DNA of 64,000 bases from positions 40,151-104,150 of the IMG/VR virus record IMGVR_UViG_3300047089_000152; one strand, given 5' to 3'. Shown here in pieces: positions 1,729 to 50,362 of this stretch. Position 1 is the stretch's first letter, and each line of letters starts with the position of its first letter. This DNA comes from a virus. Both the position numbers and the translations under genes were made by a program. The notes below the pieces were generated by a model, which was given only the letters and a program-made list of their open reading frames with translations, was not told the origin of the DNA and did no database searches.

Positions 1729-2556
1729 ATGGCCACCTACAAGACGCTGCGCAGTGACGACCCGAAAGTCCAGCAAGCCCGGCAACGCGCCGGGAAAATC
1801 GTCGGGGCGATGAACGACCTCGCCGCCCTCGTCCAACAGTCGTGGGACGCGAAAGACTGGCGCGTCCTCGGCTATGACTCCTGGCAGAGTTACACGGTCG
1901 GGGAGTTCGGCCACGGCGACACCGCCATCAAAGCCCGGCAGGTCATCGTGTCCATGCTCCGAGGAACCGGACTGTCCCAACGCGCCATCGCCGCGGAGAC
2001 CGGCGCGTCCGTCGCGACCGTCAACAACGACATTGCCGACCTGTCAACCGCACCCCCGGAGGGTGACCCTACGACGATCGACCGGCGACCCCGGCCGACT
2101 GTTCAGGAACCTGAACAGTCACTCAGAGTAACCGGGCTGGACGGTAGGACACAACCCGCCAGCAGAGGAGGCATGACAGGAGACCAGCGCAGAGAACGGG
2201 ACCGGCTACTGCGGGCGCAAAGACGGCAAAGAGAAGCGGCCCTCCGCGAAACCCACGCCGCCGACGCCGCCCGGCCGGTACCTGACATGATCCACGGTCA
2301 CCCCGTGACCGTCACCTGCCCGATGTGCGTAGAACTGGCACGCCCAGCCCGCGAAGCACCCGTTGAACCACTAGCTGGACATTCCGTCGAAACCCGGCTT
2401 CGGCTGCTGTTCGCCGGGTTCCTCGACGGTCTCACCCCCGACCAGCTCACCGCCCTGCACGACCACTGGGACGAGATCATGAACGAAACCGTCACAGACC
2501 GGATCACTAGCTGGGCCGCCGTCGGCCGTACCGTCGCGCAGGAAAGGGCAAGCTGA
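1729..2556 (+). CDS. helix-turn-helix DNA-binding protein; leaderless
   Basis: GLSQRAIAAETGASVATVNNDI HTH; TACAAT 6 nt before ATG. Confidence 0.75.
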   Translation: MATYKTLRSDDPKVQQARQRAGKIVGAMNDLAALVQQSWDAKDWRVLGYDSWQSYTVGEFGHGDTAIKARQVIVSMLRGTGLSQRAIAAETGASVATVNNDIADLSTAPPEGDPTTIDRRPRPTVQEPEQSLRVTGLDGRTQPASRGGMTGDQRRERDRLLRAQRRQREAALRETHAADAARPVPDMIHGHPVTVTCPMCVELARPAREAPVEPLAGHSVETRLRLLFAGFLDGLTPDQLTALHDHWDEIMNETVTDRITSWAAVGRTVAQERAS

Positions 2557-2975
2557 TGAACGGTCAGACTGTCCCCCGGCCCCGGCCGTGCGCGTCGTGT
2601 CCGTACCGTAGAGACGTGCCGTCCGGTGTGTGGGCCGCGGAAGAATATGACAAGCTACCCCGCTACGACGGGGACACGGGTGAGCAGGCGATGGCCGGGG
2701 CGTTCGGCGTGTTCATGTGTCACCAGGCTGACGGGCACCTGTGTTCAGGTTGGGTAGCCGCCCACGACATGCAGCACAACCTGGCGATACGCATGGCCCG
2801 CGACGTGGACATGCCAGCGGTCCTGTCGTACACCACGGACGTGTCGGTGTTTGGTTCCGGTGCGGAAGCCGCGGCGCACGGCAAGGCCGACATCGAGACC
2901 CCGGGGCCGGAAGCTATGCGGACCGTGGAGAAGATCACCGTGGTACGCGGTAGGCGCGGGAAAGGGAAAGGATGA
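2556..2975 (+). CDS. DUF6283-like Cys/His-rich protein
   Basis: PCASCPYRRDVPSGVW...CHQ...CSGW motif. Confidence 0.7.
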   Translation: MNGQTVPRPRPCASCPYRRDVPSGVWAAEEYDKLPRYDGDTGEQAMAGAFGVFMCHQADGHLCSGWVAAHDMQHNLAIRMARDVDMPAVLSYTTDVSVFGSGAEAAAHGKADIETPGPEAMRTVEKITVVRGRRGKGKG

Positions 2976-3133
2976 GGCGGCCTAGGACGGAGCTGGAAGC
3001 GTACCGGTGTCCTGATTGCGGGTACACGGCGTTGATACAGCGGCTGGCTAGCCGGAGGAAGCTGACGGGGCATTTGAAGTGGTTGTGGTGTGTGCGGTGT
3101 GAGGTGCCCACGAATCATGTACTGGTCCCCTAG
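2972..3133 (+). CDS. 53-aa zinc-ribbon protein
   Basis: ATGA-coupled to the upstream gene; CPDCG...GHLKWLWCVRC...NH. Confidence 0.6.
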   Translation: MRRPRTELEAYRCPDCGYTALIQRLASRRKLTGHLKWLWCVRCEVPTNHVLVP

Positions 3134-3145: not shown

Positions 3146-3154
3146 TGGTACGCT
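3146..3154 (+). promoter_or_regulatory. extended -10 promoter upstream of a pentamer mini-array
   Basis: TGGTACGCT, the same motif found before other mini-arrays and leaderless genes. Confidence 0.6.
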
Positions 3155-3169
3155 GTGGGTACAGCAAAC

Positions 3170-3303
3170 GGACCGGAAGGGAAAGGCTGGGCGCGGCAGG
3201 CATCGCAGCGGCCGGGATAGCAGCGGATCGGAGCGGCAGGACAGGATTGGCAGGGCACGGCTGGGCTAGGTGTGGCTGGGCTGGGAACGGAATGGATTGG
3301 ACA
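3170..3303 (+). ncRNA. GGH-NN pentamer mini-array (2 units), putative guide RNA
   Basis: 13 pentamers, GGCAG-GACA delimiter at 3235, then 12 more pentamers. Confidence 0.75.
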
Positions 3304-3370
3304 CTAGCCGCACCGCATGCTACAGTAGAGGTATAGTCAACGGACGAGGGCATGAAAGGAACAACGCACC

Positions 3371-4036
3371 ATGCCACCACGCAAGACCACCACAGGCGGA
3401 CCAGTCCAGCTCACCAGGCTGGCAGAAGAAGTCGCCCAAATCCACATCGCCGGGGCTACGCCACTTATTATTCATAAATGGTCGGAAAAGGCGCTCAACC
3501 AGATGCGGATCGCCCAGTCCGGGGCAATTAAGCCGCCCCGCGAACCCAAGAACGCCGAAGAAAACGCCCACGCGGCAACATACTGGGTCGACGTCGCCGA
3601 GACGATCCCCGGCATCCCCAGCGTCTCATTCAAGGCCGCCATGGTCGGAGCCTGCCGGTTCTTCGACGGCCTCCCCATGACGACAGCAAAATTGCTGTTC
3701 TTCGTCGACGGGGTCGTCAGCGAAGCCAAGGGCGACGCGCCAGCACGCGACCTGCTCGTCCCGATTATCTCCGGCCCTGGGGAAATGCGGGAAGACACCC
3801 CGCGCAACGACAACGGAAACCCGGACCTCCGGTACAGGAATCAGTTCTTCCCGTGGAAAGCCGTACTCAACGTGCGGTTCATGCCCGCGAAGATCGCCCC
3901 CGAATCCGTCATCGCGCTAGCTGACGCCGCCGGTCGTGGCGGTGTCGGAGAATGGCGTCCATCCGCACCGAAAAGCGCGACTGGCACATACGGCCAGTTT
4001 CGTGTCATCACCCGGAAGGAATGGGAGTCGGCCTAA
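3371..4036 (+). CDS. stand-alone Cas7/RAMP-like protein, putative guide-RNA-binding filament
   Basis: N-terminal strand IAGATPLIIH, GIPSVSFKAAM (cf. RAMP IPxSSxKG helix), C-terminal glycine-rich loop GRGGVGEWRP...GTYGQFRV; flanked by repeat arrays. Confidence 0.7.
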   Translation: MPPRKTTTGGPVQLTRLAEEVAQIHIAGATPLIIHKWSEKALNQMRIAQSGAIKPPREPKNAEENAHAATYWVDVAETIPGIPSVSFKAAMVGACRFFDGLPMTTAKLLFFVDGVVSEAKGDAPARDLLVPIISGPGEMREDTPRNDNGNPDLRYRNQFFPWKAVLNVRFMPAKIAPESVIALADAAGRGGVGEWRPSAPKSATGTYGQFRVITRKEWESA

Positions 4037-4037
4037 A

Positions 4038-4595
4038 ATGGCGACCATCACCGTCGAACAGCAGTGGGCGTTCAAATCGGGTGCGCGTGTCCCGGGTGGC
4101 GTCCACGCCGAGGATGTGGTGCGTGAGAAGGAACAGATGGAAGACCACCTGGGCCGCCTCGCCACCACGGAGGAAGCCGCGGAAATGGTCCTCCGCTGGC
4201 CTACCAAGTACAAGGCGCACCGGGCGTTCGCACCGGCAACCGAGAAAGAAGCACTCCACGAAGCAGTGGTACGCGGTGTTCGGAGCGCCTGGAGTTCCGT
4301 GATTCAGGTCGACGTCGAAATCACCGAGGTCACCAACCGGATTTCCGGTGATATCGAGATCGCAACCAGGCGTGTCGACGCACCCGAAGTGAGATGGTTT
4401 CACGCCGTGCCAGCACGCGTCGGCGACACGCAACGAGTTTATGACTCGTTGCCGAATATCGCAGCCGATGCTGACAAGGAAGCGGCGCTGTCCGAAGATC
4501 TCGCCACGCAAGCACGCAACTTCTCCGCAAAAGTAGCCAGCGTCACTGGCGAGCTGGCGCGGTTGCACAAGTTGCGCAGCACCGCCGGAAATTAG
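4038..4595 (+). CDS. partner protein of the Cas7-like gene, function unknown
   Basis: ATG 1 nt after the upstream stop; predicted helical; sits directly before the main array. Confidence 0.7.
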   Translation: MATITVEQQWAFKSGARVPGGVHAEDVVREKEQMEDHLGRLATTEEAAEMVLRWPTKYKAHRAFAPATEKEALHEAVVRGVRSAWSSVIQVDVEITEVTNRISGDIEIATRRVDAPEVRWFHAVPARVGDTQRVYDSLPNIAADADKEAALSEDLATQARNFSAKVASVTGELARLHKLRSTAGN

Positions 4596-4598
4596 ACC

Positions 4599-4636
4599 AC
4601 CAGGTTCCGGCCGGGGAAACTCGGCCGGAACCTGGT
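4599..4636 (+). other. 17-bp stem with GAAA tetraloop at the 5' end of the array (processing, stability or terminator hairpin)
   Basis: ACCAGGTTCCGGCCGGG-GAAA-CTCGGCCGGAACCTGGT. Confidence 0.8.
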
Positions 4637-4644
4637 CGGTAAGG

Positions 4645-5923
4645 GGAGTGGAGGGGCAGGGACTGTCGTGGCAAGGAACGGCAGGGCACGGAGTGGATTG
4701 GCAGGATAGGCTCGGCGCGGCCAGGCGGGGAGCGTTTCGGAGTGGCATGGATTGGCTGGGACTGGCAGTATCGGATCGCAGTGGTCAGGGTAGGCAAGGC
4801 CCGGCCAGGCGGGGCTCGGTATGGCCTGCACTGGCGGGGAACGCAATGGAGTGGCAGGACCGGTGTGGAATGGCTGGGACGGGAACGGCGCGGTAGGGAA
4901 TGGAGTGGCAGGAACGGTGGGGCCGGGCGCGGCGCGGCTAGGCTCGGCGCGGACGGGCATGGATTGGCTGGGCAGGACAGGATCGGAGAGCAGGGGGCTG
5001 GCGCGGCATGGCACGGAGAGGCAGGAGAGGAACGGTCGGGACAGGAGCGGCAAGGAGCGCACCGGCAGGCAGCGGCAGGGAATGGCATGGAACGGACTGG
5101 ATTGGCAGGACAGGACCGGCATGGCCAGGAGGGGCATGTCCTGGAATGGAATGGCAGGAATGGCTGGGTACGGCGGGGCCGGGCGAGCATTGGACAGGAC
5201 CGGCAGTCGCGGAAGGGCTCGGCAGGGACCGGATTGCAGCGGCGAGGATGGGCTAGGCAGGAGCGGAACGGCAGGGCATGGCCTGGATCGGAGCGGCTGG
5301 GCAGGATAGGCATGGATCGGCCTGGGTAGGCAAGGAGGGGCTGGGACGGGACCGGATTGGCAGGGCAGCAGTGGAGAGGCAAGCCGTGCAATGGCGGGGC
5401 GGGGCGTGGCATGGACTGGACCGGCAGGACTGGACTGGACTGGATTGGAGAGCAGGGCAGTGGCAGGGATCGTAGGGGTTCGGACGGGCAGGTTAGGCTT
5501 GGACGGGCTAGGCGTGGCATGGGCCGGCAAGGAACGGCTCGGAGCGGCAGGGATTGGCACGGCTCGGAGTGGCAGGACCGGACGGGTACGACGTGGCGTG
5601 GCTGGCATTGGCAAGGACTGGCAGGAGTGGATTGGCAGGGCCGGGCTTGGCATGGCGTGGCTGGGAATGGCGTGGCAGGACAGGTGGGGCTTGGCGGGCC
5701 GGGGATCGGCACGGATGGGCATGGCATGGCCCGGTAGGGCATGGCAGCATTGGACTGGACCGGACCGGCAAGGCTTGGCTTGGCTGGGATCGGATGGGAA
5801 CGGCAGGAGCGGAGCGGACTGTCGTGGCATGGCATGGCCTGGCGTGGCGCGGATCGGACGGGCAGGATAGGTCGGGCGTGGAATGGAACGGACGGGCTGG
5901 GCATGGAACGGCAGGATAGGAGT
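4645..5923 (+). repeat. main GGH-NN pentamer array, about 21 units, putative multi-guide precursor RNA
   Basis: strict 5-nt periodicity; GGCAG+4-nt delimiters at 4700, 4764, 4853, 4907, 4971, 5020, 5104, 5153, 5202, 5256, 5300, 5364, 5423, 5487, 5571, 5620, 5674, 5743, 5802, 5861, 5910; all spacings are 5n+4. Confidence 0.92.
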
Positions 5924-5937
5924 GACCCGCAGGGCTA

Positions 5938-5966
5938 CTGTCGGGGTGGGCCGCGTGCCCCGGCAG
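5938..5966 (+). terminator. hairpin at the 3' end of the array
   Basis: CTGTCGGGGT...GCCCCGGCAG inverted repeat. Confidence 0.5.
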
Positions 5967-5980
5967 AAGTTCGGCGGTGG

Positions 5981-6133
5981 ATGATCTTGTGCTCGTGCGG
6001 CCATCCTGCGGTCGAGCATGACCTGAACCGTTCGGAGACTAAGCGAACAGTTTGCCTGACCACCGAACGGACTACGAAATGTCCGTGCGTGCTATATTCA
6101 CCAGACCTTCGTGATACACTAGAGGTACAATGA
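5981..6133 (+). CDS. small Cys/His zinc-binding protein
   Basis: MILCSCGHPAVEH...C...CPC. Confidence 0.55.
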   Translation: MILCSCGHPAVEHDLNRSETKRTVCLTTERTTKCPCVLYSPDLRDTLEVQ

Positions 6134-6999
6134 ACGAGACCATAGAACGAGAAGACCGCAGGGCCGTCACCGCGCTCACCTCCGGGGAAAACGCCACGAA
6201 GGTCACCGTCAAAACAAGCGACGGCAACTACGAAGAACGACAGCTAACCGTCCACGGGCTCGCACGGCTGATTCCCGTGATCGCACTGGGCGACATGGAC
6301 CGGCTGATAGACGACGTGCGCGAACACGGCGTCCTCGAACCCCTGATCATGTTCCAGGGACAAGTCCTTGACGGACGCAACCGGCTCGCCGTAGCTTCGG
6401 TCGTCGGCGTACCCGTGCAGCTCACCGAATTCGACGGAGACGAAGCCGCAGCCAGAAACTTCGTCTGGTCCGCGAACGCTGCGAGGCGGCACCTGTCCGT
6501 CCCCCAGATCGCGCTGGCCGCTGAACGGTTCGGTTTCGTCGACGCCGCCAAAGCCGAAGCAGGCCCCGACGACCCCAACCTGGATATCCGCTCGACGGTC
6601 GCACCATGGGCGCGAATCGCCGCGCGAAAGGTCGGTGCGATCACCCCGGCTACACTGGAACGGTTCCAGCAAGCCAGGATCCCCGAGGCACCCGACACGA
6701 TGCGCCGGGTCGATTCCGGTGAGATCCGCCGGGTCGACGTCGCGGTCAAGGAAGCGGTCGCGGAGCGGACCGTGCTCACCGGCCGTCTCATCCAGGTTCC
6801 ACCCCCGGTTGCGCGTACCGCGTGGGACCGGCTGGGCTGCGCGCGGGGTGACGTTCTCGCCGCGGAACGCGCCATCCTGGCAGGGGACTGGGGTGGGATG
6901 GAAAGGGACCAGTTCGCTGTCCGCGCCCGTGAAATCCAGGGAGCCCTGATCAGGATTCAGAATTTGTATCGTTATGGATCGGGCGGCAGGACCGGTTAG
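6130..6999 (+). CDS. ParB/Srx-like N-terminal domain protein
   Basis: LIDDVREHGVLEPLI...VLDGRNRL...SANAARRHLS. Confidence 0.85.
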   Translation: MNETIEREDRRAVTALTSGENATKVTVKTSDGNYEERQLTVHGLARLIPVIALGDMDRLIDDVREHGVLEPLIMFQGQVLDGRNRLAVASVVGVPVQLTEFDGDEAAARNFVWSANAARRHLSVPQIALAAERFGFVDAAKAEAGPDDPNLDIRSTVAPWARIAARKVGAITPATLERFQQARIPEAPDTMRRVDSGEIRRVDVAVKEAVAERTVLTGRLIQVPPPVARTAWDRLGCARGDVLAAERAILAGDWGGMERDQFAVRAREIQGALIRIQNLYRYGSGGRTG

Positions 7000-7057
7000 G
7001 ACGGGCTAGGAATGGCTGGGCTGGGCATGGACTGGAATGGCAGGAATGGAATGGCTA
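6985..7057 (+). ncRNA. GGH-NN mini-array (1 full unit), putative guide RNA
   Basis: GGCAG-GACC + 9 pentamers + GGCAG-GAAT. Confidence 0.75.
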
Positions 7058-22598: not shown

Positions 22599-22667
22599 GC
22601 ATTGGAGGGGCATGGCATGGCACGGCCCGGAGTGCTGGGGTGGGGAACGGAATGGATGGGCAGGATA
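22599..22667 (+). ncRNA. GGH-NN mini-array (1 unit), antisense to the late operon
   Basis: 12 pentamers + GGCAG-GATA, intergenic. Confidence 0.8.
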
Positions 22668-22689: not shown

Positions 22690-23100
22690 TTACAGGTGCG
22701 CACCAACCTGGATCAGAAATGAGCATCCCATGTATTGCTGGCCGGCGTATTCGGTGAGTCCGTAGGTCATCACCTGCAATACGACCGTGAACTCCACCGC
22801 CCCGCCCAGGGTCGGGTCAGCCTGCACCGCCGCGTTGATGCTTTTAGTACCGGACGTGGACACGTAGTCGTCGATTACGTCCTGGCCGGAAGCGTCGTTC
22901 GCGGCGGATACCAGCACGACGGCGAGGAGATTGACCTGGGTTTCGCCGTCCATCGTGATGCCGTAATTGACCGCTGGCCGGTTCGGGATTATGACCGCGC
23001 ATGGCGGTATGACCTGCCCGGGTGCGATCGCGTGTACGTTCAGCCCGGTGGTGGATAGCCGGGTTGCGAGCGCGACCCTGATCGCTTTGACGTTAGCCAT
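22690..23100 (-). CDS. tail terminator / tail completion protein
   Basis: position; SINAAVQADPTLGG motif. Confidence 0.7.
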   Translation of the reverse strand: MANVKAIRVALATRLSTTGLNVHAIAPGQVIPPCAVIIPNRPAVNYGITMDGETQVNLLAVVLVSAANDASGQDVIDDYVSTSGTKSINAAVQADPTLGGAVEFTVVLQVMTYGLTEYAGQQYMGCSFLIQVGAHL

Positions 23101-30863: not shown

Positions 30864-31877
30864 TCACCGGAACAGGTTCTGGTACGTGGTCTCCCACAGC
30901 TTCCAGCCCTCCTCTATGGTGTACTGCCGGGCCTGTTCACGGGCCGCCGCGCCCATCTTCTCCCGCAGCGAATCATCGGAGGCCAGCTCCGACATGTAAC
31001 CCAGCCATTCGTGGTCCCGTTTCACCAGGAACCCCGTCTCGCCGTGCTTCACGAAATCACGGTACGGATGCCAGTCCGACGCGATCACCGGGATACCCAG
31101 CGCCCCGTACTCCAGCGCTTTCAGGTACGACTTGGACGCGTTAAACCGGGTAGGCGCGACCGGGGCCAGGCCGATGTCCCAGTCCGGGGACGTGTAAAAC
31201 CCCCGCGGGTTATCAGTGACATGCACCCACGGGGTGAACACCACCCGGCCCCCAGCCTTGAACGTCGGCCGGTAATCAGTGCCGCCCAACCGCAGGTCCC
31301 AACCGGGGAACCGTTTCAGGAAACGGCGGACCGCGGGTGACACCAGTCCCACATCCGCGCCGTGAGAAGCACCACCAGCCCACCCGACCGCAGGACGTTC
31401 CCGCCGTTTCCGCGGATAGTCACACACCCATGCGGGGATGTGGTTCGGCAAGACCACGACGTTACTGTTGTACTCCGACAGGACCTCCGCCAGCGGCTCC
31501 GTGGAACACGTCACCACATCAGAAACTTCCACCGCGTGGATGGCCGCGTCCAGAATGTCCGGGCGCTGCCACATGTGGTATGCGACGAAATTCTCCGGGG
31601 TGACATGGAACACGTCGTCGTCCAGCTCATACACCAGCCGGGTAGCGGGCGTGCGGGCGTCCCGGAAAATATGCACCCCACCCGGCTTGTTGAACCTCTG
31701 CCCCACGATCACGTCATGCCCGGCCATCGACGTGGCGTTGATTCCCACCCCGCCGTCGTCGACGCTCCCAGACGTTGTCGTCACGTCGTAGCCGTGCGCT
31801 GCGAACTGCTCCATCGGCAGGATCATCCGGTACCAGGCACACCCAGAACCACCGTCGTGACCCGCGAAGATCCTCAC
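30864..31877 (-). CDS. GT4-like glycosyltransferase
   Basis: DIGLAP...FNASKSYLKALEYGALGIPVIASD...HGETGFLV. Confidence 0.9.
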   Translation of the reverse strand: MRIFAGHDGGSGCAWYRMILPMEQFAAHGYDVTTTSGSVDDGGVGINATSMAGHDVIVGQRFNKPGGVHIFRDARTPATRLVYELDDDVFHVTPENFVAYHMWQRPDILDAAIHAVEVSDVVTCSTEPLAEVLSEYNSNVVVLPNHIPAWVCDYPRKRRERPAVGWAGGASHGADVGLVSPAVRRFLKRFPGWDLRLGGTDYRPTFKAGGRVVFTPWVHVTDNPRGFYTSPDWDIGLAPVAPTRFNASKSYLKALEYGALGIPVIASDWHPYRDFVKHGETGFLVKRDHEWLGYMSELASDDSLREKMGAAAREQARQYTIEEGWKLWETTYQNLFR

Positions 31878-32043
31878 TCCCCGTCAGTGTCCTTCCACCA
31901 GTGGTTATTCTCGCATTCATAGTAAGGCTGCTCGGTATTGTCGTCCTGGCTCGTCGCTGTCGGGGGAAGACCGCACGACGGGCACACAGACACGACGCTA
32001 GTCCTTCGGCTTCTTAGGCTTAGGCTTCTTCTTCAAGATCTGC

Positions 32044-32268
32044 TTACCCACGCTGCCCCTCCTGCGCCTCGGCTATGGTGTACCTCACGTAGGACTCGTC
32101 CAAGCCCACGTCAATACCAGCCTGGGCGACCTTCGCCACCTCAGCCGGTGGCAGCCCAGACTCAGCCGCGGTCGAAGCAGCCCAGAAAAACCCCTTATGC
32201 CGCTCCCCCACGGGCAGCCCCGCCACGAACGCGGCGAGACCATCCGCGTTACGCGCCGGCGTCGTCAT
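32044..32268 (-). CDS. hypothetical protein
   Basis: ORF overlapping the upstream stop. Confidence 0.55.
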   Translation of the reverse strand: MTTPARNADGLAAFVAGLPVGERHKGFFWAASTAAESGLPPAEVAKVAQAGIDVGLDESYVRYTIAEAQEGQRG

Positions 32269-32869
32269 CCGGTACCAGACCCCAGGCCAGGCAGCCGATC
32301 ACGTCGGTGACCCCGAACTCATCCGCGACACCCGTGATCTCAAACCCCGGGTGTCCCGTGCTACCCGACCGGCCATAGTCGTGGAACGCTATCCACCCGC
32401 CCGGCTTCACCAGCATCAAAGCCAGCCCCAGATCGCGGGTCACGGACTCCGCGGAATGGTGACCGTCCAGGAAAGCACCGTCGACCCGGACGCCGTTAGC
32501 GGCCAGCTTCGGGACCTCTTCCTCGAACCGGCCCCGGATCGCGACAACCCTGTCGTCAACCTTGTAACCGATCAGGTTCGCGATGAAACCGTCCCACGTT
32601 TCGTACGGCCCGGCATGGTCATCGCCCATGTGCCAGTCGACGGAGTAGACCTTCTCAGCGACGCTGGCCATAACGATCGTGGAGTAGCCGTAAAACGAAC
32701 CCAGCTCCAGGACCGTGCACCCCGCGGCGAGGCGGGCCAGCTCCGCAGCCTCCGTGATAGTGACCGCGGACTGGAGGCCCCCGGCGGGGAAGATCGGGGT
32801 CCGGTCAGATTCCCCACGTGCTGCGGCCCGCCACCGTCCAGTACGAGATACCCGGTTCGGCGTGCTCAT
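32249..32869 (-). CDS. Methyltransf_24-like O-methyltransferase
   Basis: VLELGSFYGYST, FLDGHHS, LVKPGGWIAFHDY; start uncertain. Confidence 0.8.
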   Translation of the reverse strand: MSTPNRVSRTGRWRAAARGESDRTPIFPAGGLQSAVTITEAAELARLAAGCTVLELGSFYGYSTIVMASVAEKVYSVDWHMGDDHAGPYETWDGFIANLIGYKVDDRVVAIRGRFEEEVPKLAANGVRVDGAFLDGHHSAESVTRDLGLALMLVKPGGWIAFHDYGRSGSTGHPGFEITGVADEFGVTDVIGCLAWGLVPDDDAGA

Positions 32870-33476
32870 GGTACCAGCGTAGCTCCTCATCCAAGTCGGA
32901 GTAATCCTCGTACCAGGCGACGTGATCCGCGACGTACGGGTGCCCCGTGCGGATCGCGGACAGCGTGATGTCGAATCCTTCTTGCAACGGCCGGTACATC
33001 GCCAGGGTCGTGTCGACCGGGGCCTTGTACACACCGTCATCCAGGGGGGTGTCCCAGAATTGCTGTTCCCACTTCAGCACGTGGTCCTTGCGCTGGTACG
33101 TATCAGGGATGCGGTCCAGTCGCAATCCCATCCCAGCTTTGCCGTACTCCGGGTAGGCGTCCAGCAGCCGGTACAGCCTGTCGGGCCAGTCCAGCGGGCA
33201 GTCATCAGACGGGATCACGTCACAGTCGGTGACCACGTACAGGTCGTCGCTGCACAACTGGCGGAACGGCTCCCAGCCCCACAGGCTCCTCGGGTGGCCG
33301 CCACCGTGGAGCAGTATCTCCACCCCCGCAGCGTTCATCGCTTTCAGCCAGTCCCCCGCGAGGGGCCAGCTGGATCCCATGTCGATGATGACAGGTTTCA
33401 GTCCGGCTTCGGTCATCGCGGTCAGGCACAGGTGGGCGTATGTCACACGGTCCCGGCAGATAATGAAGGCGCGCAT
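32805..33476 (-). CDS. GT-A fold glycosyltransferase
   Basis: IIDMGS, YVVTDCDV (DxD), APVDTTLAMY; TACAAT 6 nt before ATG. Confidence 0.75.
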   Translation of the reverse strand: MRAFIICRDRVTYAHLCLTAMTEAGLKPVIIDMGSSWPLAGDWLKAMNAAGVEILLHGGGHPRSLWGWEPFRQLCSDDLYVVTDCDVIPSDDCPLDWPDRLYRLLDAYPEYGKAGMGLRLDRIPDTYQRKDHVLKWEQQFWDTPLDDGVYKAPVDTTLAMYRPLQEGFDITLSAIRTGHPYVADHVAWYEDYSDLDEELRWYHEHAEPGISYWTVAGRSTWGI

Positions 33477-34101
33477 ACCGGCATTGTAAGCGGAACACGG
33501 ACGGATAGACATCGCTGGTTTCCGCGTCGACGTTCGCGTACTTCACTCCAGCGTCAAGCCACTTCTCCACCAGGTTCCAGTCTTCAATCCAGCTTGGCGG
33601 TCCCCACGTCCCGTATTCCAGCGTCGACCTGCGGTGCATGATCATCGGTGAACCAAGATTCCCGCAGGCCAGCGGGCCCCAGCCGAGCACGGTCTGATGG
33701 GCGTGGTGGGATACCATCCTGGATACCGCGAATCCCGCTTCCGGGTCCGCTTCCAACGCGGCGACCAGCAGCGAGCAGTGTTCCGGGCGCAAAGCGTCGT
33801 CATCGTCGCAGTAGGTGATGTACTCGCCTGCTGCGGCTTCGACCCCGTGGACCCGCGCCCAGTGGCCGTAGTTTTCTTGTTCGTTGGTGACGTGGTAGTC
33901 CATCTGGTAGTACGCAAGGTTCCGCCACCCGGCCAGCCACGGCTTGCGGAGCTGCCCGCCGAGTATCTCGTCGGGCCCGTCGGAGACCACGATGTGTTCC
34001 ACAGCCGGGTATGTCTGGGCTTGCACAGCGGGGACGCACCGGCCGAGGAGCAGTTCATGCCTGCGCCACGTCGGGGTGATCACTGAGACCAGAGGGATCA
34101 T
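33220..34101 (-). CDS. GT2 glycosyltransferase
   Basis: VSVITPTW, IVVSDG, YCDDDD, EDW; long C-terminal overlap with the next gene. Confidence 0.85.
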   Translation of the reverse strand: MIPLVSVITPTWRRHELLLGRCVPAVQAQTYPAVEHIVVSDGPDEILGGQLRKPWLAGWRNLAYYQMDYHVTNEQENYGHWARVHGVEAAAGEYITYCDDDDALRPEHCSLLVAALEADPEAGFAVSRMVSHHAHQTVLGWGPLACGNLGSPMIMHRRSTLEYGTWGPPSWIEDWNLVEKWLDAGVKYANVDAETSDVYPSVFRLQCRYARLHYLPGPCDIRPPVPDRDDRSRTETCHHRHGIQLAPRGGLAESDERCGGGDTAPRWRPPEEPVGLGAVPPVVQRRPVRGHRL

Positions 34102-34760
34102 GCCAGGGATGCTAGCAGCCGTGGCAGGTCTGCGGGCCACTGATTGTTCAGGAACTGGGAGTAGGCGATCTCATCCCGTGAGTACGCTTCGATGCAGTTG
34201 GCCTTCTCGTATCCCAGGTCCCATGCGCCTTTACCGGCGGAGGGGTGCATGTGTTCCATGATCACCCCGGGGCAGTATGCGAGGTGGGTTGCCTGCCCGA
34301 GGACCTTCCAGAAACAATCCTGGTACAGGTGCTCAACATTAGGCGGGACCATGTAACCCAGTCCGAGGATCAGGTTGGATGTCATGACGCACGCGGTCGG
34401 GACTTTCGCGGACTGGAACAGGTCATCCCCGTACGACACGCCCGGCCACCCGCCCAGCGCCGCGGTCAGGATCACATCCCACTTAGGTGTCCTGGGACGG
34501 TGGTCGTCGCCGAGGAAACCGATGAACTCGTACTTCGGGGCGTATTCCACGGCGAGCACGTTGATGATCCGGCCCAGGCCGCGGGGTTCGGAAAGAACCC
34601 GCACGTCACCTGCTTCAAGATAGCCGGGTAGTTCCGGGTCGTCGTCGTCGACAGCGACCAGCAGCTCAGCGTCGACGGTCACATCCCCCCACGTTTCGCG
34701 GAGCTGCTTGATGTTACCGGGCCGGCCCCGGGAAGGGCACAGCATCAAGGTGCTAGCCAC
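34098..34760 (-). CDS. GT2-like glycosyltransferase
   Basis: PSRGRP, VDDDDP, FLGDDH, EHMHP. Confidence 0.8.
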   Translation of the reverse strand: MASTLMLCPSRGRPGNIKQLRETWGDVTVDAELLVAVDDDDPELPGYLEAGDVRVLSEPRGLGRIINVLAVEYAPKYEFIGFLGDDHRPRTPKWDVILTAALGGWPGVSYGDDLFQSAKVPTACVMTSNLILGLGYMVPPNVEHLYQDCFWKVLGQATHLAYCPGVIMEHMHPSAGKGAWDLGYEKANCIEAYSRDEIAYSQFLNNQWPADLPRLLASLA

Positions 34761-36090
34761 GGATACCCTCGGGGACGCGGATTGTACCCAGCCCGTAGAA
34801 CGGCCGTCCTTCAGCGGGTGCGGGGCGTTCCGTCTGCCGTTCCCACGCAAGTCCCGTCTCGGCGCAGTAGTCGTCCAGCGCCGCGGCTACAGGGAAGTCG
34901 GGGCCGCCCGCTACCTGCGCGACCCACGGGGCACCCATCACGTAGTCGCCCTTGGACAGCTCCGGGTCGTGACACAGGATCGTGCCGCCCGGTTTGACGC
35001 GGGGCGCGTACCGTCGCAGCTCAGCCATCGTATGGTCGTAGGTGTGGGACGTGTCGATGAAAAGCACGTCCAGCACGCCGGGGATGAAATCGGCTGCTTC
35101 TTCGCTCATGTCGTCGCCCGGCAAGAACGACCATAGCTCAGTGTCAGCCCACCAGGGCGGCACCATCACCGGGCCGATGTCCATGCTGTACACGTGCCCG
35201 CCGGTGGCGCTAGCACCGGCTAGGAGAGCGGAGGTTGACTGTCCCGTCCGGGTTCCCAGCTCCGCTACGACCGGCTTGTCATACTGGCGGACCGCTTCGC
35301 GGATCAGGGGCATCTGCTCTACGATGTCGGACCATTCGACCATACGAGCCTGGTATTCCGCTTCGAGTTCTTTATGCCACTTCAGGGCCATGGTGTCCTC
35401 TCGACGCCACCCGGTGTACGGCTCCCGGTGAAAAGCCTGGTCGTTCAGGTTCATGCTGGCGCGCCACCCGCCGCCACCTTCAACGTAAGTCTGGTCGGGC
35501 GGGAACCCGTTGATGTCCGGGCGGTCCTGGTGCACGTAAATACCGGGGTAGACCAGGACTCGCGCTTCCCGCCCCGCATACTCGAACCAGGTATCCAACG
35601 CTGGCAGCGGTGTCAGCCTCCCGACCGCACCCAGCGCGTCGGCGTGGACGGCAGGGAAACACGTCAGCCCCGGGTAGTTCCCGTCCAGGTAGGCGATGCT
35701 CCCCGGGGGCTGGGCGCGGAGCAGGTCATCCCACCCTTGCGTCTGCATGGTCGCGTCGTCGGACCACGTCGGGAGAAACCATTCCCCGGTCGCGCGTTCA
35801 CACAGAGCCGCCCAGTAATGCGCCGACCTCGCATACCCGTACCGTTCGGGCGACTCCCAGACAAGGTCGGCTTTCAGCTGGAACGCAGCCGCCGCGGTCG
35901 GGAGGTCGTCGGGGTCGCGGGCAACCAGGATTTCCAGCAGGTCCGGTCGTTTCGCTGCTTCCCGCAGCGACAGTATCGAAGCGGTCAGCCTGTCCGGGCG
36001 GCCCCGGGACGGTACCGTCACCGAGATCACCCCCGGCCGCCGCCGCGCCGGGGGGCACAGCCGCAGCGGGATCATCGGCTCGTCAGTCAC
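34753..36090 (-). CDS. fused GT2-like glycosyltransferase + Methyltransf_24
   Basis: N-terminal PSRGRP/WSDD; C-terminal ELGTRTGQST, LFIDTSHTY, VKPGG. Confidence 0.85.
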   Translation of the reverse strand: MTDEPMIPLRLCPPARRRPGVISVTVPSRGRPDRLTASILSLREAAKRPDLLEILVARDPDDLPTAAAAFQLKADLVWESPERYGYARSAHYWAALCERATGEWFLPTWSDDATMQTQGWDDLLRAQPPGSIAYLDGNYPGLTCFPAVHADALGAVGRLTPLPALDTWFEYAGREARVLVYPGIYVHQDRPDINGFPPDQTYVEGGGGWRASMNLNDQAFHREPYTGWRREDTMALKWHKELEAEYQARMVEWSDIVEQMPLIREAVRQYDKPVVAELGTRTGQSTSALLAGASATGGHVYSMDIGPVMVPPWWADTELWSFLPGDDMSEEAADFIPGVLDVLFIDTSHTYDHTMAELRRYAPRVKPGGTILCHDPELSKGDYVMGAPWVAQVAGGPDFPVAAALDDYCAETGLAWERQTERPAPAEGRPFYGLGTIRVPEGIRG

Positions 36091-37237
36091 GGACAATCCT
36101 CGGTTCGGGTAGCGGCACGATGAACGTGCCCGTGTACCCGCGTTTACGCAGCACCGGTATCAGGCCGCCCGCGATGTCCCACGCCAGGATCAGCGCGTGG
36201 GGTGGCTGATCGGTGAACAGCCGTTCCTCATCCACGATCGGCACGTCCGTGCCGGGGATGACAGCCCCGATCTTCTCACTACCGGCAATCTCACACGCGC
36301 ACGTCAGGTACCTGGCTATGTTCGCGTAGTTGATTAGCGGGGTGGCGCGGGTCGGGGCGGTGACGGCGTAGACCGGGCCGTCTTCCGCGGCCCGCTCCAG
36401 TATTTTGTTCAACGCCAAAGCCAAATAGCCTGCGCGTTCTTCAAGGTCTGCTTTTTCCCACCGGGCAACCACGCGGAACGAACCACCGTGCATCCCGATC
36501 CGGTTCCAGGACACCACCAGCAGCCCATGCTGTGCCAGCAGCCACGACAGGGAAGCCGGCGAGAAATACCGCAGGTGCTCATGGTAGATCGTGTCGATCT
36601 GAAGGTCCTGGACGACGTTGTGCCAGTCCTGGTTGTCGATGATCAGCGTCCCGTCAGGGGCGAGTAGTTCTTCCACCCCGTCCAGGAAATCGTGCGGGTC
36701 ACCGACGTGCCCGAACACGTTCGACGCGGTGATCACCTTCGCGACCCCGTGCTCCTCGGCTATCTCCGCGGCCAGCCTGTCAGTGAAATATGCCTGGACC
36801 ACTTTGATTGACGTGTCGTCGCACCGTTTCGCCTGGTCCGTCGGTTCGATTAGCATCAGCCGCGGTTCGGGGTCGATCTTACGCAACGCCCGTAGCATCG
36901 TCCCGTCGTTACCGCCGATGTCGATGACAAGATCACCCGGCATCACCAGATCCGAAACCGCGCGGGCCTGTTCAGCGAAATGGTCCCGCAGCGCCCCCGT
37001 GTTCCCCGTGATGTACGGGTAGTCGGCGGGGAAACGTTCTTTCTCCAGCACGATGTAGTCCAGCTGGACCAGGGTGCACCGCCCGCAGCGGACCAGCCGC
37101 AGCGGGTACCGGCGGGACGTGTCCTTGCCGGGCATCGCCTGTGGTAGCGGCTGCTCCCCCATGTCCAGGACCGGGCCCAGGTAAGGGCTGCCACACGACC
37201 CGCACTCGGTGACCGGTCCCTCATGCACGGTCCGCAC
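36083..37237 (-). CDS. NDP-hexose C-methyltransferase (Methyltransf_13/14; TylC3/EryBIII-like)
   Basis: CGSCGS zinc site, LDMGEQPL, CxxCTLVQL, DIGGNDG, DTIYHEHLRYFS, terminal VPLP. Confidence 0.9.
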   Translation of the reverse strand: MRTVHEGPVTECGSCGSPYLGPVLDMGEQPLPQAMPGKDTSRRYPLRLVRCGRCTLVQLDYIVLEKERFPADYPYITGNTGALRDHFAEQARAVSDLVMPGDLVIDIGGNDGTMLRALRKIDPEPRLMLIEPTDQAKRCDDTSIKVVQAYFTDRLAAEIAEEHGVAKVITASNVFGHVGDPHDFLDGVEELLAPDGTLIIDNQDWHNVVQDLQIDTIYHEHLRYFSPASLSWLLAQHGLLVVSWNRIGMHGGSFRVVARWEKADLEERAGYLALALNKILERAAEDGPVYAVTAPTRATPLINYANIARYLTCACEIAGSEKIGAVIPGTDVPIVDEERLFTDQPPHALILAWDIAGGLIPVLRKRGYTGTFIVPLPEPRIVRD

Positions 37238-37356
37238 CCCGCAAATCTGCCAGCATCTCCGCGATCTCGCGCCGCTCCACGCCGGTATCTGTTGCGTAAC
37301 TCAGCTGCGACAGAGCCAGCCTGGCTATCGTAACCTGTCGACAATCCCAGATCAGG

Positions 37357-38319
37357 TTAACCATCGGGGTGCTCCCGGTACCAGTCAGACGTCAATGCCA
37401 GCCCAGCTTCAAAGCTGACCTGGGGTCCGTCGTAGCCCAGTGCCATGATCTTCCCGATGTCCGGTAGCCGCCGCGAAGGACTGCCCTGCGGGAGGATACC
37501 AGTCTCGATTTTGATCCGCCGGAAATACCGTTGCGCCACGGCGTAGGCCACATCCGCGACAGTCCGCTCATCCATCGTGCCCAGGTGGTAGATCTCCGCG
37601 CCACGCGGCGACTTGTCCAGCAGCGTCACGAACTGTTCCACGCAGTCACTGATGTAGCAGAACGACCGGGTTTCCTCACCGCTACCCTGGATCAGGAACG
37701 GGACCGGGTCCAGGGTGGAATTCGCCAGGCCGTTCATGCGCTGGCAGAACTCCGGTATCACATGCCGGGTGCCCATGTCCGGCCCGTAAATGTTGTGGGG
37801 CCGGACGATGATCAGCCGGTCCAGGATCCCGGTCCGCTGCCACGCCAGCGCGGCCAGCTCGGAAGCGATCTTCCCGCCCCCGTAGGAGTAGCGGGGGTTC
37901 AGCGGGTCAGGGACTACCAGCGGCACGGTCTCCGGGGTCGGCCACACCGGGGGTGTCTCGTACGCCTCGGAAGAGGAGACCAGCAGAAGTTCCCGGCAGC
38001 CCGTCACCCGGCACGCTTCCAGGACGTTCACGATGCCGCGCAACGCCACGTCCAGAACCTGCCGGGGTTCAGAATAGAAAGTCTGGGTGCCTTGCAGATA
38101 CGCCAGGTGCAGGACCCGTTCACAGCCGTGCATCGCCCGGGTCACCACGTCAGGGTCGCGGACATCACCGTTGACGATCTCGCAGGCTACCCCCGCCAGG
38201 CGGTCCGGCCGGCCGCGGCTCATGTCATCCAGCACCACAACGTCGTGGCCGTCACCGGCAAGCCGCCGGGTCAAAGCCGAGCCGATGAAACCGGCACCGC
38301 CGGTAATCAGGTATCTCAT
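37357..38319 (-). CDS. NAD-dependent nucleotide-sugar epimerase/dehydratase
   Basis: TGGAGFIG, SSSE, YGGGK, RPHNIYGP. Confidence 0.92.
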   Translation of the reverse strand: MRYLITGGAGFIGSALTRRLAGDGHDVVVLDDMSRGRPDRLAGVACEIVNGDVRDPDVVTRAMHGCERVLHLAYLQGTQTFYSEPRQVLDVALRGIVNVLEACRVTGCRELLLVSSSEAYETPPVWPTPETVPLVVPDPLNPRYSYGGGKIASELAALAWQRTGILDRLIIVRPHNIYGPDMGTRHVIPEFCQRMNGLANSTLDPVPFLIQGSGEETRSFCYISDCVEQFVTLLDKSPRGAEIYHLGTMDERTVADVAYAVAQRYFRRIKIETGILPQGSPSRRLPDIGKIMALGYDGPQVSFEAGLALTSDWYREHPDG

Positions 38320-39351: not shown

Positions 39352-39429
39352 GGCAGGATGGGATTGGCATGGCGCGGCAAGGTAGGGCTCGGATCGGCAA
39401 GGAATGGATAGGAACGGCAGGAGTGGCAG
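39352..39429 (+). ncRNA. GGH-NN mini-array (1 unit)
   Basis: GGCAG-GATG + 11 pentamers + GGCAG-GAGT, followed by a hairpin. Confidence 0.82.
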
Positions 39430-39477: not shown

Positions 39478-40761
39478 TCATCCTGCCGCCATATGTGAGT
39501 CGAAGAAATTATCCTTCGGGCCGATATGGGAACGGAACTTGTACTTACGGATCAATTCCTCGCGGATTCCCACGAGGTCTTCTGAACTGAGTTCCGCCGT
39601 GCGGACCACGGAATCGGTACCCATGTTCTTTTGCCCGTAGGCGCCAAGTCCTTCTCCAGTAAATATCAGGTCGGTAGCTATTCCCTCGTCCATTTCCCGC
39701 CTGAATTCTGTGCCGCGATAAGGATAATAGATAGCAATCTGCGCATCATCTATCCCTGACGTGCAGATGAACCGTTCAGTCTCCGCGATCGTAGCGCGTG
39801 TCTCGCCGGGTAGCCCGATCATCACGAATGCTTTCACGGTGATGCCCGCATCCTTGCAGTACCGGACACAATCGTAATTCTGCGTGGCGGTTGTCTTCTT
39901 ATCCATCCGGTCTAGCATCTGCTGCGACCCGGATTCCGCACCAAACGCCACCTCGACACACCCCGCATCGGCTAGCGCCGCGGCGAACTCCGCGGTCATG
40001 AATTTCGCGTGCACATTGCAGCGAAATCTTAGCCCGGAGCGCTTGAGTAGGTCCAGGTACGGCTGGCACTTCCCCAAATTAATTGCAAAAAGATCATCAT
40101 ACAAATACACGCCCTCATACCCGAGCGTCACGATGTCGTCCAGTTCGGCCTCGGCGTTGCCCAGCGAAGTCCACCTGGTCAGCGTCCGCGCGTCTTCACA
40201 GAACTTGCACGCCATCGGACAGCCCCGGCCGAGCATCATCGTGGTCGAGTTCAGCCCGGCCAGGGTGTACGAGTAGTTTTTCAGGAACCCAGGCTCACCC
40301 AGCCGGTCCGGGCGGGGCATCGCCGCTAGTTCCTGCCGGGGGATCTGGTCGTTGCTCATGACAGGAACCGTTTTGTTCTGCACGATGCCTGGCAGTGCCC
40401 GCTCCCCGTCGCCTGCCACCAGGTAGTCCCACAGCCCGGCCTGGTCGTCTGCGTTCATCTCCCGGCCGTAATGCCGGACGTGCGGGCCGCCTGCCACCAG
40501 AACTTTGGACGGCCAGCGGCTCCTGATCGCGCGGGCTATCCGGTTAGCCTCGGCGCGCTGCGGTGTCATCACCGAGACGCCTACTATGTCAGCGTCCGCG
40601 AACTGGTCCAGATCCTCGACGTCGTATTCGTCTACGACGCTGATCTTAGTACCGGGGGCCTGCGCGGCCACCGCGGATTTCAGGTACAGCAGGCCGAGGG
40701 GCGGGTAGATACGGTCGTCGTCCAGGAACGGGGACCGGCAGGAAACCAGGGACAGTTTCAT
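39478..40761 (-). CDS. cobalamin-binding radical SAM enzyme (class B methyltransferase-like)
   Basis: PPLGLLYL, GGPH, GDGE B12 domain; GRGCPMACKFC; GAESGSQ; IGLPGET. Confidence 0.92.
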   Translation of the reverse strand: MKLSLVSCRSPFLDDDRIYPPLGLLYLKSAVAAQAPGTKISVVDEYDVEDLDQFADADIVGVSVMTPQRAEANRIARAIRSRWPSKVLVAGGPHVRHYGREMNADDQAGLWDYLVAGDGERALPGIVQNKTVPVMSNDQIPRQELAAMPRPDRLGEPGFLKNYSYTLAGLNSTTMMLGRGCPMACKFCEDARTLTRWTSLGNAEAELDDIVTLGYEGVYLYDDLFAINLGKCQPYLDLLKRSGLRFRCNVHAKFMTAEFAAALADAGCVEVAFGAESGSQQMLDRMDKKTTATQNYDCVRYCKDAGITVKAFVMIGLPGETRATIAETERFICTSGIDDAQIAIYYPYRGTEFRREMDEGIATDLIFTGEGLGAYGQKNMGTDSVVRTAELSSEDLVGIREELIRKYKFRSHIGPKDNFFDSHMAAG

Positions 40762-46425: not shown

Positions 46426-46499
46426 GGTATGGAGGGGTGCGGCTTGGCGTGGCTTGGCGGGGCGCGGCGGGGATTGCATTGGATTGGATTGGCAGGAAC
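46426..46499 (+). ncRNA. GGH-NN mini-array (1 unit)
   Basis: TATAAT at 46406-46411; 13 pentamers + GGCAG-GAAC; then a hairpin. Confidence 0.8.
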
Positions 46500-50303: not shown

Positions 50304-50362
50304 GGATAGGAGCGGCAGGGCTTGGCCTGGAGAGGATCGGCTGGGATTGGATTGGCAGGCTT
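50304..50362 (+). ncRNA. GGH-NN mini-array (1 unit)
   Basis: 10 pentamers + GGCAG-GCTT. Confidence 0.78.

What the first reader, a model, noticed from the sequence alone, without database searches (positions are those of the whole stretch)
3146..5966. Candidate phage RNA-guided system: lone Cas7/RAMP-like gene, partner gene and pentamer-coded guide array
Seen: a 221-aa protein with RAMP-like features (IPSxSxK helix, C-terminal glycine-rich loop GGVGEWRP...GTYGQF) and a coupled partner gene. These are followed by a GAAA-tetraloop hairpin, 1.28 kb of strictly phased GGH-NN pentamers and a closing hairpin. The window has no cas1/2/3/5/6 and no conventional repeat-spacer array. Known: Cas7 subunits polymerise along guide RNA with fixed periodicity. 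Inference: each pentamer is one subunit footprint, with the constant GGH bound by protein and the variable NN pairing with the target, giving a gapped targeting code. From memory and unverified here, a similar phage system with GGY/NN guides has been reported as VIPR and should be compared; in this locus GGA is about as common as GGC.
Basis: partly seen in the sequence, partly recalled or inferred. Interest (0 to 1): 0.98.

Follow-up and report, generated by a model that had tools for sequence, protein, structure and literature searches.

The report
VIPR guide-RNA system in a soil phage
This stretch of a 104-kb soil phage carries a VIPR system, a CRISPR-like RNA-guided DNA-silencing machine first described in 2026 preprints, so it is a new member of a known kind. 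It has an unusually large guide set, an A-or-C third repeat base, and extra guide genes scattered beside the phage's own look-alike targets.

Summary

- **Vap:** the coupled ORF 4038-4595 is a remote homolog (hhalign 92.5%) of the partner gene beside Vipr homologs in Mycobacterium, Gordonia and cyanophage genomes.
- **Array:** 4645-5914 holds 258 pentamers. Base 1 is G in 258/258, base 2 is G in 234/258, base 3 is A 114 / C 122, and bases 4-5 are near-random.
- **Correction:** the array is not strictly phased. It is 21 guides of 9-18 units, each ending GGCAG, whose last G starts the next guide. This is the "staggered array" of the VIPR discovery preprint.
- **Co-occurrence:** 43 of 49 related viral loci carry same-strand pentamer tracts beside the gene.

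Features particular to this phage:
- GGA is about as common as GGC, whereas relatives use GGC.
- There is an upstream mini-array and five dispersed solo guide genes.
- Solo guides S1 and S3 match neighbouring phage genes under the published 1-nt-skip code. S3 matches six VIPR-less kin phages better than its own genome.

No target was found for any array guide, and no expression data exist. Novelty: new member of a known kind.

The parts
3146..3154 (+). TGGTACGCT extended -10-like box ahead of the upstream array
   Evidence: The pattern TGGTAnnnT followed by a pentamer tract occurs 4 times in the window (3146, 22583, 39328, 50280), against 0.01 expected by chance.
3170..3303 (+). Upstream mini-array of about 3 vrRNA-like segments (U1-U3); the last is 13 units long
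   Evidence: Pentamer tracts at 3170-3199 and 3239-3303; unit listing. A TGGACA-17-TACAGT promoter-like site at 3298-3326 overlaps the array's end, ahead of vipr.
3371..4036 (+). vipr: 221-aa stand-alone RAMP (Cas7-like) protein
4038..4595 (+). vap: 185-aa accessory protein, translationally coupled to vipr
   Evidence: It starts 1 nt after the vipr stop. hhalign of its family (A4) against the phrog_15946 partners of Saal, UmaThurman, ODay and Cy-LDV1 gives probability 92.5%, E 4.9e-7. AF2 pLDDT 94.7. No informative PDB fold match.
4596..4640 (+). 20-bp hairpin with GAAA tetraloop between vap and the array
   Evidence: dG -41.5 kcal/mol, z -8.1. A hairpin sits at the same place in the relative L054.
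4645..5914 (+). Staggered array of 21 vrRNAs (GG-M-NN pentamers, 9-18 units each, each ending GGCAG with a 1-nt overlap into the next)
   Evidence: Viterbi segmentation, register statistics, guide grammar. No Rfam family matches. Single guides are unstructured (z 0.4).
5929..5975 (+). Weak hairpin after the array
   Evidence: z -1.5; 18 of 200 shuffles fold as well. It is not a reliable feature.
6989..7043 (+). Solo vrRNA S1 (11 units, ends GGCAG)
   Evidence: Tract found. By the 1-nt-skip code it matches 20/22 at 6945-6977 (- strand). Other skip rules give 14-15, the permutation null has a maximum of 16, and the next best genomic site scores 16.
6945..6977 (-). Near-cognate self site of S1, in the 3' end of the ParB-like ORF 6130-6999 and over the TATCGT box ahead of S1
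   Evidence: Alignment. The skipped base falls on codon position 3, read directly from the coordinates.
22604..22663 (+). Solo vrRNA S2 (12 units) with a TGGTAGGAT box at 22583 and a 21-bp hairpin just downstream
   Evidence: Hairpin z -12.1. Its tied-best genomic match, 17/24, lies 320 bp away at 22985-23019; this is marginal.
39356..39420 (+). Solo vrRNA S3 (13 units) with a TGGTACGCT box at 39328 and a hairpin plus T-run at 39433-39472
   Evidence: Hairpin z -6.7.
40076..40114 (+). Near-cognate self site of S3, inside the B12-binding radical SAM gene 39478-40761 (- strand)
   Evidence: The match is 20/26, against a null maximum of 19 and a next best site of 17. The homologous site in six kin phage contigs scores 22/26. 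Gene family.
46426..46495 (+). Solo vrRNA S4 (14 units) between the portal and protease genes, followed by a 19-bp hairpin
   Evidence: Hairpin z -6.8. Its tied-best match, 19/28, lies 30 bp upstream; this is marginal.
50304..50358 (+). Solo vrRNA S5 (11 units) between the terminase and peptidase genes, with a TGGTACACT box at 50280
   Evidence: No self match above the null.

Best explanation
The locus is a VIPR (Viral Interference Programmable Repeat) system of a tailed soil phage.

**Inferred by homology to the SUSP1 system:**
- The arrays are transcribed from the + strand.
- Vipr protomers bind one per pentamer, holding G1, G2 and base 3 and presenting the two variable bases.
- The filament reads double-stranded DNA as NN-x-NN-x, skipping one base per unit, and silences transcription of the bound gene.
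- Vap assists.

**My own inference:** each guide ends where the register slips by one base (GGCA-G-GA). This would stop the filament and so set guide length.

**Shown here:** fold, homology, array grammar, co-occurrence across relatives, and code-consistent matches for two solo guides.

**Inferred function:**
- The 21 array guides attack competing mobile elements that are not yet sampled.
- The dispersed solo guides act on the allele of the gene next to them, in kin phages during co-infection or in the phage itself.
For: - **Homology:** the only PDB sequence hit of the family profile is SUSP1 Vipr, E 3.5e-6. H35, R156, W195 and R196 align to the RNA-contact residues H17, R138, W178 and R179 named in 10.64898/2026.04.26.720927.
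- **Partner gene:** a vap is conserved across this Vipr clade.
- **Array grammar:** 258 GG-M-NN units with near-maximal NN entropy, and 21 distinct guides.
- **Co-occurrence:** 43 of 49 IMG/VR loci and 4 of 4 isolated phages with a homolog have co-oriented tracts, with almost none on the opposite strand.
- **Guide turnover:** the close relative L054 has the same architecture with different guide content.
- **S1:** it matches 20/22 only under the 1-nt-skip rule; other rules give 14-15.
- **S3:** it matches 22/26 in six kin phages, none of which yielded a Vipr match.
- **Wobble register:** the skipped bases fall on wobble positions, as reported for SUSP1.
- **Cassette structure:** the upstream array and three of the five solo guides have a shared TGGTAnnnT box. 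Three solo guides have strong downstream hairpins.
Against: - No RNA data exist for this phage, so transcription, processing and Vipr binding are untested.
- The G1-contact Asp (D177 in SUSP1) is Glu here.
- Base 3 is a purine in 44% of units, although the SUSP1 pocket is said to exclude purines. The RNA-protein contacts cannot be identical.
- No target was found for any of the 21 array guides in the genomes I could scan.
- S1 matches its own genome better than the two kin alleles available. This does not fit simple kin-targeting.
- A 20-bp hairpin lies between vap and the array, and no promoter box follows it. How the array is transcribed is open.
Confidence: 0.9

Rival explanations
1. The solo guides are self-regulators. 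S1 and S3, loaded on Vipr, bind their near-cognate sites in the phage's own genome. They would tune or time expression of the ParB-like gene and S1's own promoter, and of the radical SAM gene. On this reading the dispersed guides form a phage gene-regulation circuit, not a weapon.
For: S1's best site anywhere is in its own genome (20/22). It lies 12 nt upstream of S1 and covers the TATCGT box. The two kin alleles score lower, at 17/22 and 14/22. The top or tied-top hits of S1-S4 all lie within 700 bp of the guide.
Against: No self site is a perfect match. S3 matches six kin phages better than self (22 against 20 of 26), and the extra self mismatch is a derived F-to-Y codon change. The published systems showed no self-targeting at 80% NN match or above.
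Confidence: 0.3
2. This VIPR clade reads RNA rather than DNA. The guides pair with mRNA through the same gapped code and block translation or recruit decay.
For: In S1, S2 and S3 the guide is complementary to the mRNA of the matched gene, that is 3 of 3 where the gene call is firm. The nearest structural relatives of Vipr are RNA-targeting type III Cas7 subunits.
Against: Three cases give odds of only 1 in 8 by chance. The geometry (guides on +, neighbouring genes on -) could force this orientation. SUSP1 VIPR binds dsDNA, and its targets lie on both strands.
Confidence: 0.08
3. The pentamer tract is not a guide array. It could be a repetitive protein-coding region (long open frames on both strands) or a DNA element such as a G-quadruplex-prone or iteron region.
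For: ORFs of 453 and 475 aa on the - strand and several on the + strand run through it. An array in Gordonia phage UmaThurman is annotated as a CDS. GG every 5 nt could form two-tetrad quadruplexes.
Against: A 5-nt period with 20 register slips cannot encode a repeat protein. Several overlapping frames are open at once, which points to composition rather than coding. The tracts keep the strand of vipr in 43 of 49 loci. Homologous arrays are shown to be RNA bound by Vipr.
Confidence: 0.02

Closest known systems
VIPR systems (Vipr + Vap + vrRNA), Escherichia phage SUSP1 type II as the studied example (bioRxiv 10.64898/2026.04.26.720920; 10.64898/2026.04.26.720927; 10.64898/2026.10.15.759431)
   Same: - A minimal two-gene phage locus with a small single-RRM RAMP that has a thumb and a G-loop.
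- One guide region upstream and an array downstream.
- GG-x-NN pentamers with hypervariable NN.
- Matches that follow the 1-nt-skip rule with the skipped base on wobble positions.
- Solo guides outside the locus.
   Different: - Only weak sequence similarity: the single-sequence search gives E 0.56 and the profile 3.5e-6, both confined to the thumb-to-G-loop region.
- Base 3 is A or C, not a pyrimidine.
- Glu replaces the G1-contact Asp.
- There is no invariant 3' tail or pseudoknot. Guides abut with a 1-nt overlap and end in GGCAG.
- There are 21 + 3 + 5 guides in the window (and one more tract on the - strand outside it), against four in SUSP1.
- The host is probably a soil actinobacterium.
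'Staggered vrRNA arrays' (fig. S18 of 10.64898/2026.04.26.720920)
   Same: Adjacent guides share one nucleotide, so the end of one marks the start of the next. This is exactly what and one search show.
   Different: The preprint's text reports small-RNA sequencing for the ribozyme-interspersed arrays and the single-guide systems, but not for staggered arrays. I could not see which type or taxa the figure shows.
Vipr homologs of cluster-level Mycobacterium phages (Saal gp51, Florinda, Quico and others) and Gordonia phages (UmaThurman gp39, ODay gp19)
   Same: They share 36-48% identity, the same phrog_4652 family, a phrog_15946-type partner gene and adjacent + strand pentamer arrays.
   Different: Their arrays are short (3-5 guides) and use GGC almost only. 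The genes are annotated as hypothetical proteins, and one array is annotated as a CDS.
Class 1 CRISPR Cas7 backbone (Csm3/Cmr4)
   Different: - There are no cas1, cas2 or other cas genes and no repeat-spacer array.
- The step is 5 nt with 3 bases sequestered, against 6 nt with 1 base flipped.
- No adaptation module is known.

Membership tests
VIPR system | Sequence homology to an established Vipr protein | tested here: met
   The profile of 38 homologs against the PDB gives SUSP1 Vipr (36pp) as the only hit, E 3.5e-6, aligned over the thumb-to-G-loop region. The single-sequence search is weak, E 0.56.
VIPR system | RNA-contact residues (SUSP1 H17, R138, D177, W178, R179) | tested here: inconclusive
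   The alignment places H35, R156, W195 and R196 at four of the five positions. D177 is E194 here and D in 34 of 36 relatives. The H17/H35 pairing rests on a low-scoring alignment segment.
VIPR system | Tandem YNNGG (GGY/NN) or related-consensus repeats, at least 4 units, flanking vipr on the same strand | tested here: met
   There are 258 units downstream and about 27 upstream. The consensus is GG-M-NN, which falls under the preprint's alternative 'NNNGG' class rather than strict GGY.
VIPR system | Minimal locus: vipr plus one vap, no cas genes, no CRISPR array | tested here: met
   The pair is coupled. The genome has no Cas1 and a single RAMP gene, and no long-period repeat array. Other cas families were not searched one by one.
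VIPR system | vrRNAs are expressed and co-purify with Vipr | not testable with these tools
   No RNA run is listed as holding this sequence.
VIPR system | Targets obey the 1-nt-skip (NN-x) rule | tested here: inconclusive
   Two of about 30 guides give matches that are specific to the rule: S1 with 20/22 against 14-15 under other rules, and S3 with 22/26 in kin against 16-17. The other guides have no match above the null.
VIPR type I-VII assignment | Position in the Vipr phylogeny together with the vap family (vap1-6) | not tested
   The preprint's tree, tables and vap sequences are not held as text, so I assign no type.
CRISPR-Cas (class 1) | Adaptation genes cas1 and cas2 and a repeat-spacer array | tested here: not met
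   Cas1 (PF01867) is absent from the 104-kb genome, and the control genomes did ring. No repeat-spacer array was found.

The most novel reading that the evidence does not exclude
The dispersed solo guides form linked 'guide plus resistant allele' pairs. Each cassette (own promoter, one guide, a hairpin) sits beside the phage's own mismatched copy of the gene it recognises. In a mixed infection it silences the kin phage's allele while sparing its own. Recombinants that take the guide without the neighbouring allele would silence themselves. That would be an RNA-guided allele-exclusion or drive-like device inside a virus. It is distinct from the satellite-targeting and vipr-targeting roles described so far.
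Probability: 0.3. Interest if true: 0.8.

Novelty: new member of a known kind. Interest (0 to 1): 0.55.

Why it matters
VIPR has so far been studied in Enterobacteriaceae and Pseudomonas phages. This locus extends the family in three ways.

- **A new host group.** It shows a rich, intact system in a high-GC soil phage whose relatives include well-studied Mycobacterium and Gordonia phages. In those phages the genes are still labelled hypothetical, and at least one array is mis-annotated as a protein. Those relatives are culturable systems in which staggered arrays could be tested.
- **A natural variant of the repeat.** The switch from GGC to GG(A/C) comes with lineage-specific changes in RNA-contact elements of Vipr. 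This gives a natural experiment on how the repeat pocket sets the constant part of the code, which matters for re-engineering guides.
- **A possible new role.** Guide cassettes placed beside near-cognate self genes suggest a use of the system, either kin exclusion or self-regulation, that the published work does not describe.

Tried and rejected
- **Targets of the array guides.** No match above the permutation null was found in the phage's own genome, in 61 fetched loci or in four kin phage records of 61-140 kb. Guides of the close relative L054 do not hit this genome either; the best is 23/32 against a null maximum of 22.
- **Exact-pattern scans.** Guides or seeds A04, S3, S1, A15 and A19 against IMG/VR, and A17 against GTDB genomes, all gave 0 hits. 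Exact matching is strict, so this says little.
- **Expression.** No RNA holder is listed. Only three soil or rhizosphere DNA metagenomes hold part of the stretch.
- **First Vap comparison.** The shallow first profile comparison with phrog_15946 partners failed, at probability 0.8%. It succeeded only after the alignment was deepened.
- **Phage identity.** Megablast of the locus and of 24 kb of the window against 50,697 phage records found no match.
- **RNA families.** Rfam gave no hit, so there is no hammerhead between guides.
- **Tool limits.** 'Relatives' cannot be drawn for a virus record. The preprint's supplementary tables are not held.
- **Solo guides S5 and M1.** Neither S5 nor the - strand solo tract outside the window (genome 33354-33408) has a self match.
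- **Complex prediction.** Not run, because the report does not rest on a Vipr-Vap contact.
Full report
**What is there**

The window is the right 64 kb of a 104,150-bp virus record (63.6% GC, about 81% complete by CheckV). It is a tailed phage. Large terminase, portal, protease, major head protein, adaptor and tape measure genes all lie on the - strand of the window. No phage in a 50,697-record collection is close at the DNA level.

The finding's genes are real. ORF 3371-4036 (221 aa) is followed after one base by ORF 4038-4595 (185 aa). Next comes a 20-bp GAAA-tetraloop hairpin (dG -41.5 kcal/mol, z -8.1), and then the pentamer tract.

A Viterbi segmentation shows the 5-nt phase falling by one at each of about 20 internal boundaries, always at GGCA|GGA. 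If the last G of GGCAG is counted as the first G of the next unit, the tract 4645-5914 resolves into 21 guides of 9-18 units, that is 45-90 nt.

Across the 258 units:

| Position | Content |
|---|---|
| 1 | G in 258/258 |
| 2 | G in 234/258 |
| 3 | A 114, C 122, T 14, G 8 |
| 4-5 | all 16 dinucleotides, 3.89 of 4 bits |

All 21 guides end in GGCAG, 17 begin GGA, and no two guides share more than half of their NN string. The tract is therefore periodic and punctuated, not 'strictly phased'. The closing hairpin is not better than shuffles (z -1.5). There is no Rfam match, so no ribozymes lie between guides. Single guides are unstructured.

**The protein is a Vipr**

- The AlphaFold model is confident (pLDDT 87, pTM 0.82).
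- Foldseek returns only Cas7-type subunits (Csm3, Cmr4, type VII Cas7), with E down to 4.9e-6.
- A profile of 38 homologs finds one sequence in the PDB, 'SUSP1 Vipr protein', at E 3.5e-6. The alignment runs from the thumb to the G-loop: LRYRNQF...GVGEWRP here against MSYRPIF...GVGDWRP.
- The cryo-EM preprint names H17, R138, D177, W178 and R179 as the contacts to G1 and G2 and part of the base-3 pocket. Here the aligned residues are H35, R156, E194, W195 and R196.
- Pfam, NCBIfam and PADLOC have no model for it. PHROGs files it in phrog_4652, function unknown.

**The partner is the clade's Vap**

Next to Vipr homologs in Mycobacterium phage Saal, Gordonia phages UmaThurman and ODay and cyanophage Cy-LDV1 lies a phrog_15946 protein. 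The window's partner did not match it at first. With a 24-sequence alignment built from a full-library search, the profile comparison gives probability 92.5%, E 4.9e-7.

Its model is confident (pLDDT 94.7): an N-terminal helical part, a small sheet and a long C-terminal helix. No solved structure explains it, so what it does is unknown.

**Co-occurrence**

- All four isolated phages carry + strand pentamer tracts directly beside the gene, and none on the other strand.
- Of 49 IMG/VR loci with a homolog, 43 do so. Opposite-strand tracts are at background level.
- UmaThurman gp40 is an annotated 'protein' that lies on such an array.
- Prophage or MAG copies occur in Mycobacterium szulgai, a Micromonosporaceae MAG, Varibaculum and several non-actinobacterial MAGs.
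- The closest relative is a soil metagenome contig (L054) whose Vipr is 93% identical. It has the same layout, with about 80% identical genes and arrays of the same grammar but different content. This is the pattern expected of a fast-turning-over guide set.

**Comparison with what is published**

Three 2026 preprints describe VIPR:
- a phage-borne stand-alone RAMP (Vipr), an accessory gene (vap) and vrRNAs of GGY/NN pentamers;
- one protomer per repeat;
- target dsDNA read as NN-x with one base skipped;
- transcriptional silencing of satellites and rival prophages;
- seven types;
- alternative repeat consensus in some types;
- 'staggered arrays' with 1-nt overlaps;
- solo vrRNAs on satellites and on phages that have lost vipr.

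It is therefore a new member of a known kind.

**What is particular to this phage**

1. *Base 3.* Among the 43 related loci with tracts, C is the majority in 42. A reaches 20% only in two distant ones. Here and in L054, A and C are about equal, while G and T are rare. A and C are the two amino bases. My inference is that the pocket reads an exocyclic amino group in a cavity widened for a purine, whereas the SUSP1 pocket is said to exclude purines. The window's Vipr and its 93% relative share seven substitutions at otherwise conserved positions. Three lie in or next to RNA-contact elements: P34I beside the beta-1 His, A84S at the start of RRM helix 1, and D194E in the G-loop. This is a correlation in a single lineage.

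2. *Size.* There are 21 guides downstream and about three upstream.

3. *Dispersed solo guides.* Five more tracts of 11-14 units lie on the + strand, at 6989, 22604, 39356, 46426 and 50304. They sit in gaps between - strand structural genes, and each ends in GGCAG. A sixth lies on the - strand outside the window. The upstream array and three of the solo guides are preceded by a TGGTAnnnT box, 4 cases against 0.01 expected. S2, S3 and S4 are each followed at once by a strong hairpin (z -12.1, -6.7, -6.8).

**Do the guides read anything?**

I applied the published rule to every guide, using unit-order permutations as the null. No array guide has a match in its own genome. Two solo guides do.

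*S1*
- It matches 20 of 22 NN positions at 6945-6977 on the - strand.
- Other skip rules give 14-15, the null maximum is 16, and the next best site in the genome scores 16.
- The site is the 3' end of the ParB-like gene, 12 nt upstream of S1. It covers the TATCGT box, and the skipped bases fall on codon position 3.

*S3*
- It matches 20 of 26 positions (20 of 22 over its inner eleven units) at 40076-40114, inside a B12-binding radical SAM gene 650 bp away. The skipped bases again fall on wobble positions.
- Six IMG/VR contigs carry a 75-78% identical radical SAM protein. In all six, S3 scores 22 of 26 at the homologous site.
- A search of five of these six records found no Vipr, and one of them is 97% complete.
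- The extra mismatch in the phage's own copy is a Phe-to-Tyr codon change that the kin lack. This is the pattern the third preprint calls avoidance of autoimmunity.

*Limits on this reading*
- S1's two known kin alleles score below self, at 17/22 and 14/22. Kin exclusion and self-regulation therefore both remain open.
- S2 and S4 have tied-best hits within 400 bp of themselves, but these are marginal one by one. S5 and the - strand solo have none.
- The top or tied-top hit lies within 700 bp of the guide for four of six solo guides. By my rough binomial estimate the chance of that is about 1e-4.
- I found the S1 and S3 matches before I looked at the scan's earlier notes. The local test of S2, S4 and S5 was prompted by those notes.

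**What remains unknown**

- The targets of the main array are unknown. Four kin genomes, 61 loci and seven exact-pattern scans gave nothing.
- The host is unknown.
- Whether and how the array is transcribed past the leader hairpin is unknown.
- The role of Vap is unknown.
- No RNA data set holds the sequence.

**Verdict**

It is already a known kind of system, with three features worth a specialist's follow-up:
- acceptance of A at the third repeat base;
- a very large staggered array;
- guide cassettes placed beside near-cognate self genes.

Noticed in passing
window 22604-22663, 39356-39420, 46426-46495, 50304-50358; also genome 33354-33408 (- strand, outside the window): Stand-alone pentamer guide cassettes sit in intergenic gaps of the structural gene block, antisense to the flanking genes. 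Most have a TGGTAnnnT box upstream, and three have a strong hairpin just downstream.
   Followed up: yes
L002:4625-4948 (Gordonia phage UmaThurman gp40): An annotated 107-aa 'hypothetical protein' lies entirely on a pentamer array next to the Vipr homolog gp39. It is most likely a false gene call. The window's own long ORFs through 4543-6019 are the same kind of artefact.
   Followed up: partly
window 40060-40115: The S3 self site lies in a locally AT-rich stretch of a 64% GC genome. Nearly every wobble base of the motif VYLYDDLFAIN is A or T here, but G or C in six kin phages. This has no effect on the NN-x code, and the reason is unknown.
   Followed up: no
window 30864-40761 (- strand): A block with a glycosyltransferase, a nucleotide-sugar epimerase, a methyltransferase-like protein and a B12-binding radical SAM enzyme sits inside the late region. 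It may be a virion or DNA modification module.
   Followed up: no
L054:8440-8500, compared with window 6985-7045: At the position of S1, the 93%-Vipr relative has only a 3-4-unit remnant (GGCAG GACC GGCTA GGAAC GGCAG). Solo guides are therefore gained or lost between close relatives.
   Followed up: partly
window 2556-2975 and 2972-3133: A DUF6283 protein (E 2.3e-31) and a small zinc-ribbon protein lie just upstream of the VIPR locus. No link to VIPR was tested.
   Followed up: no
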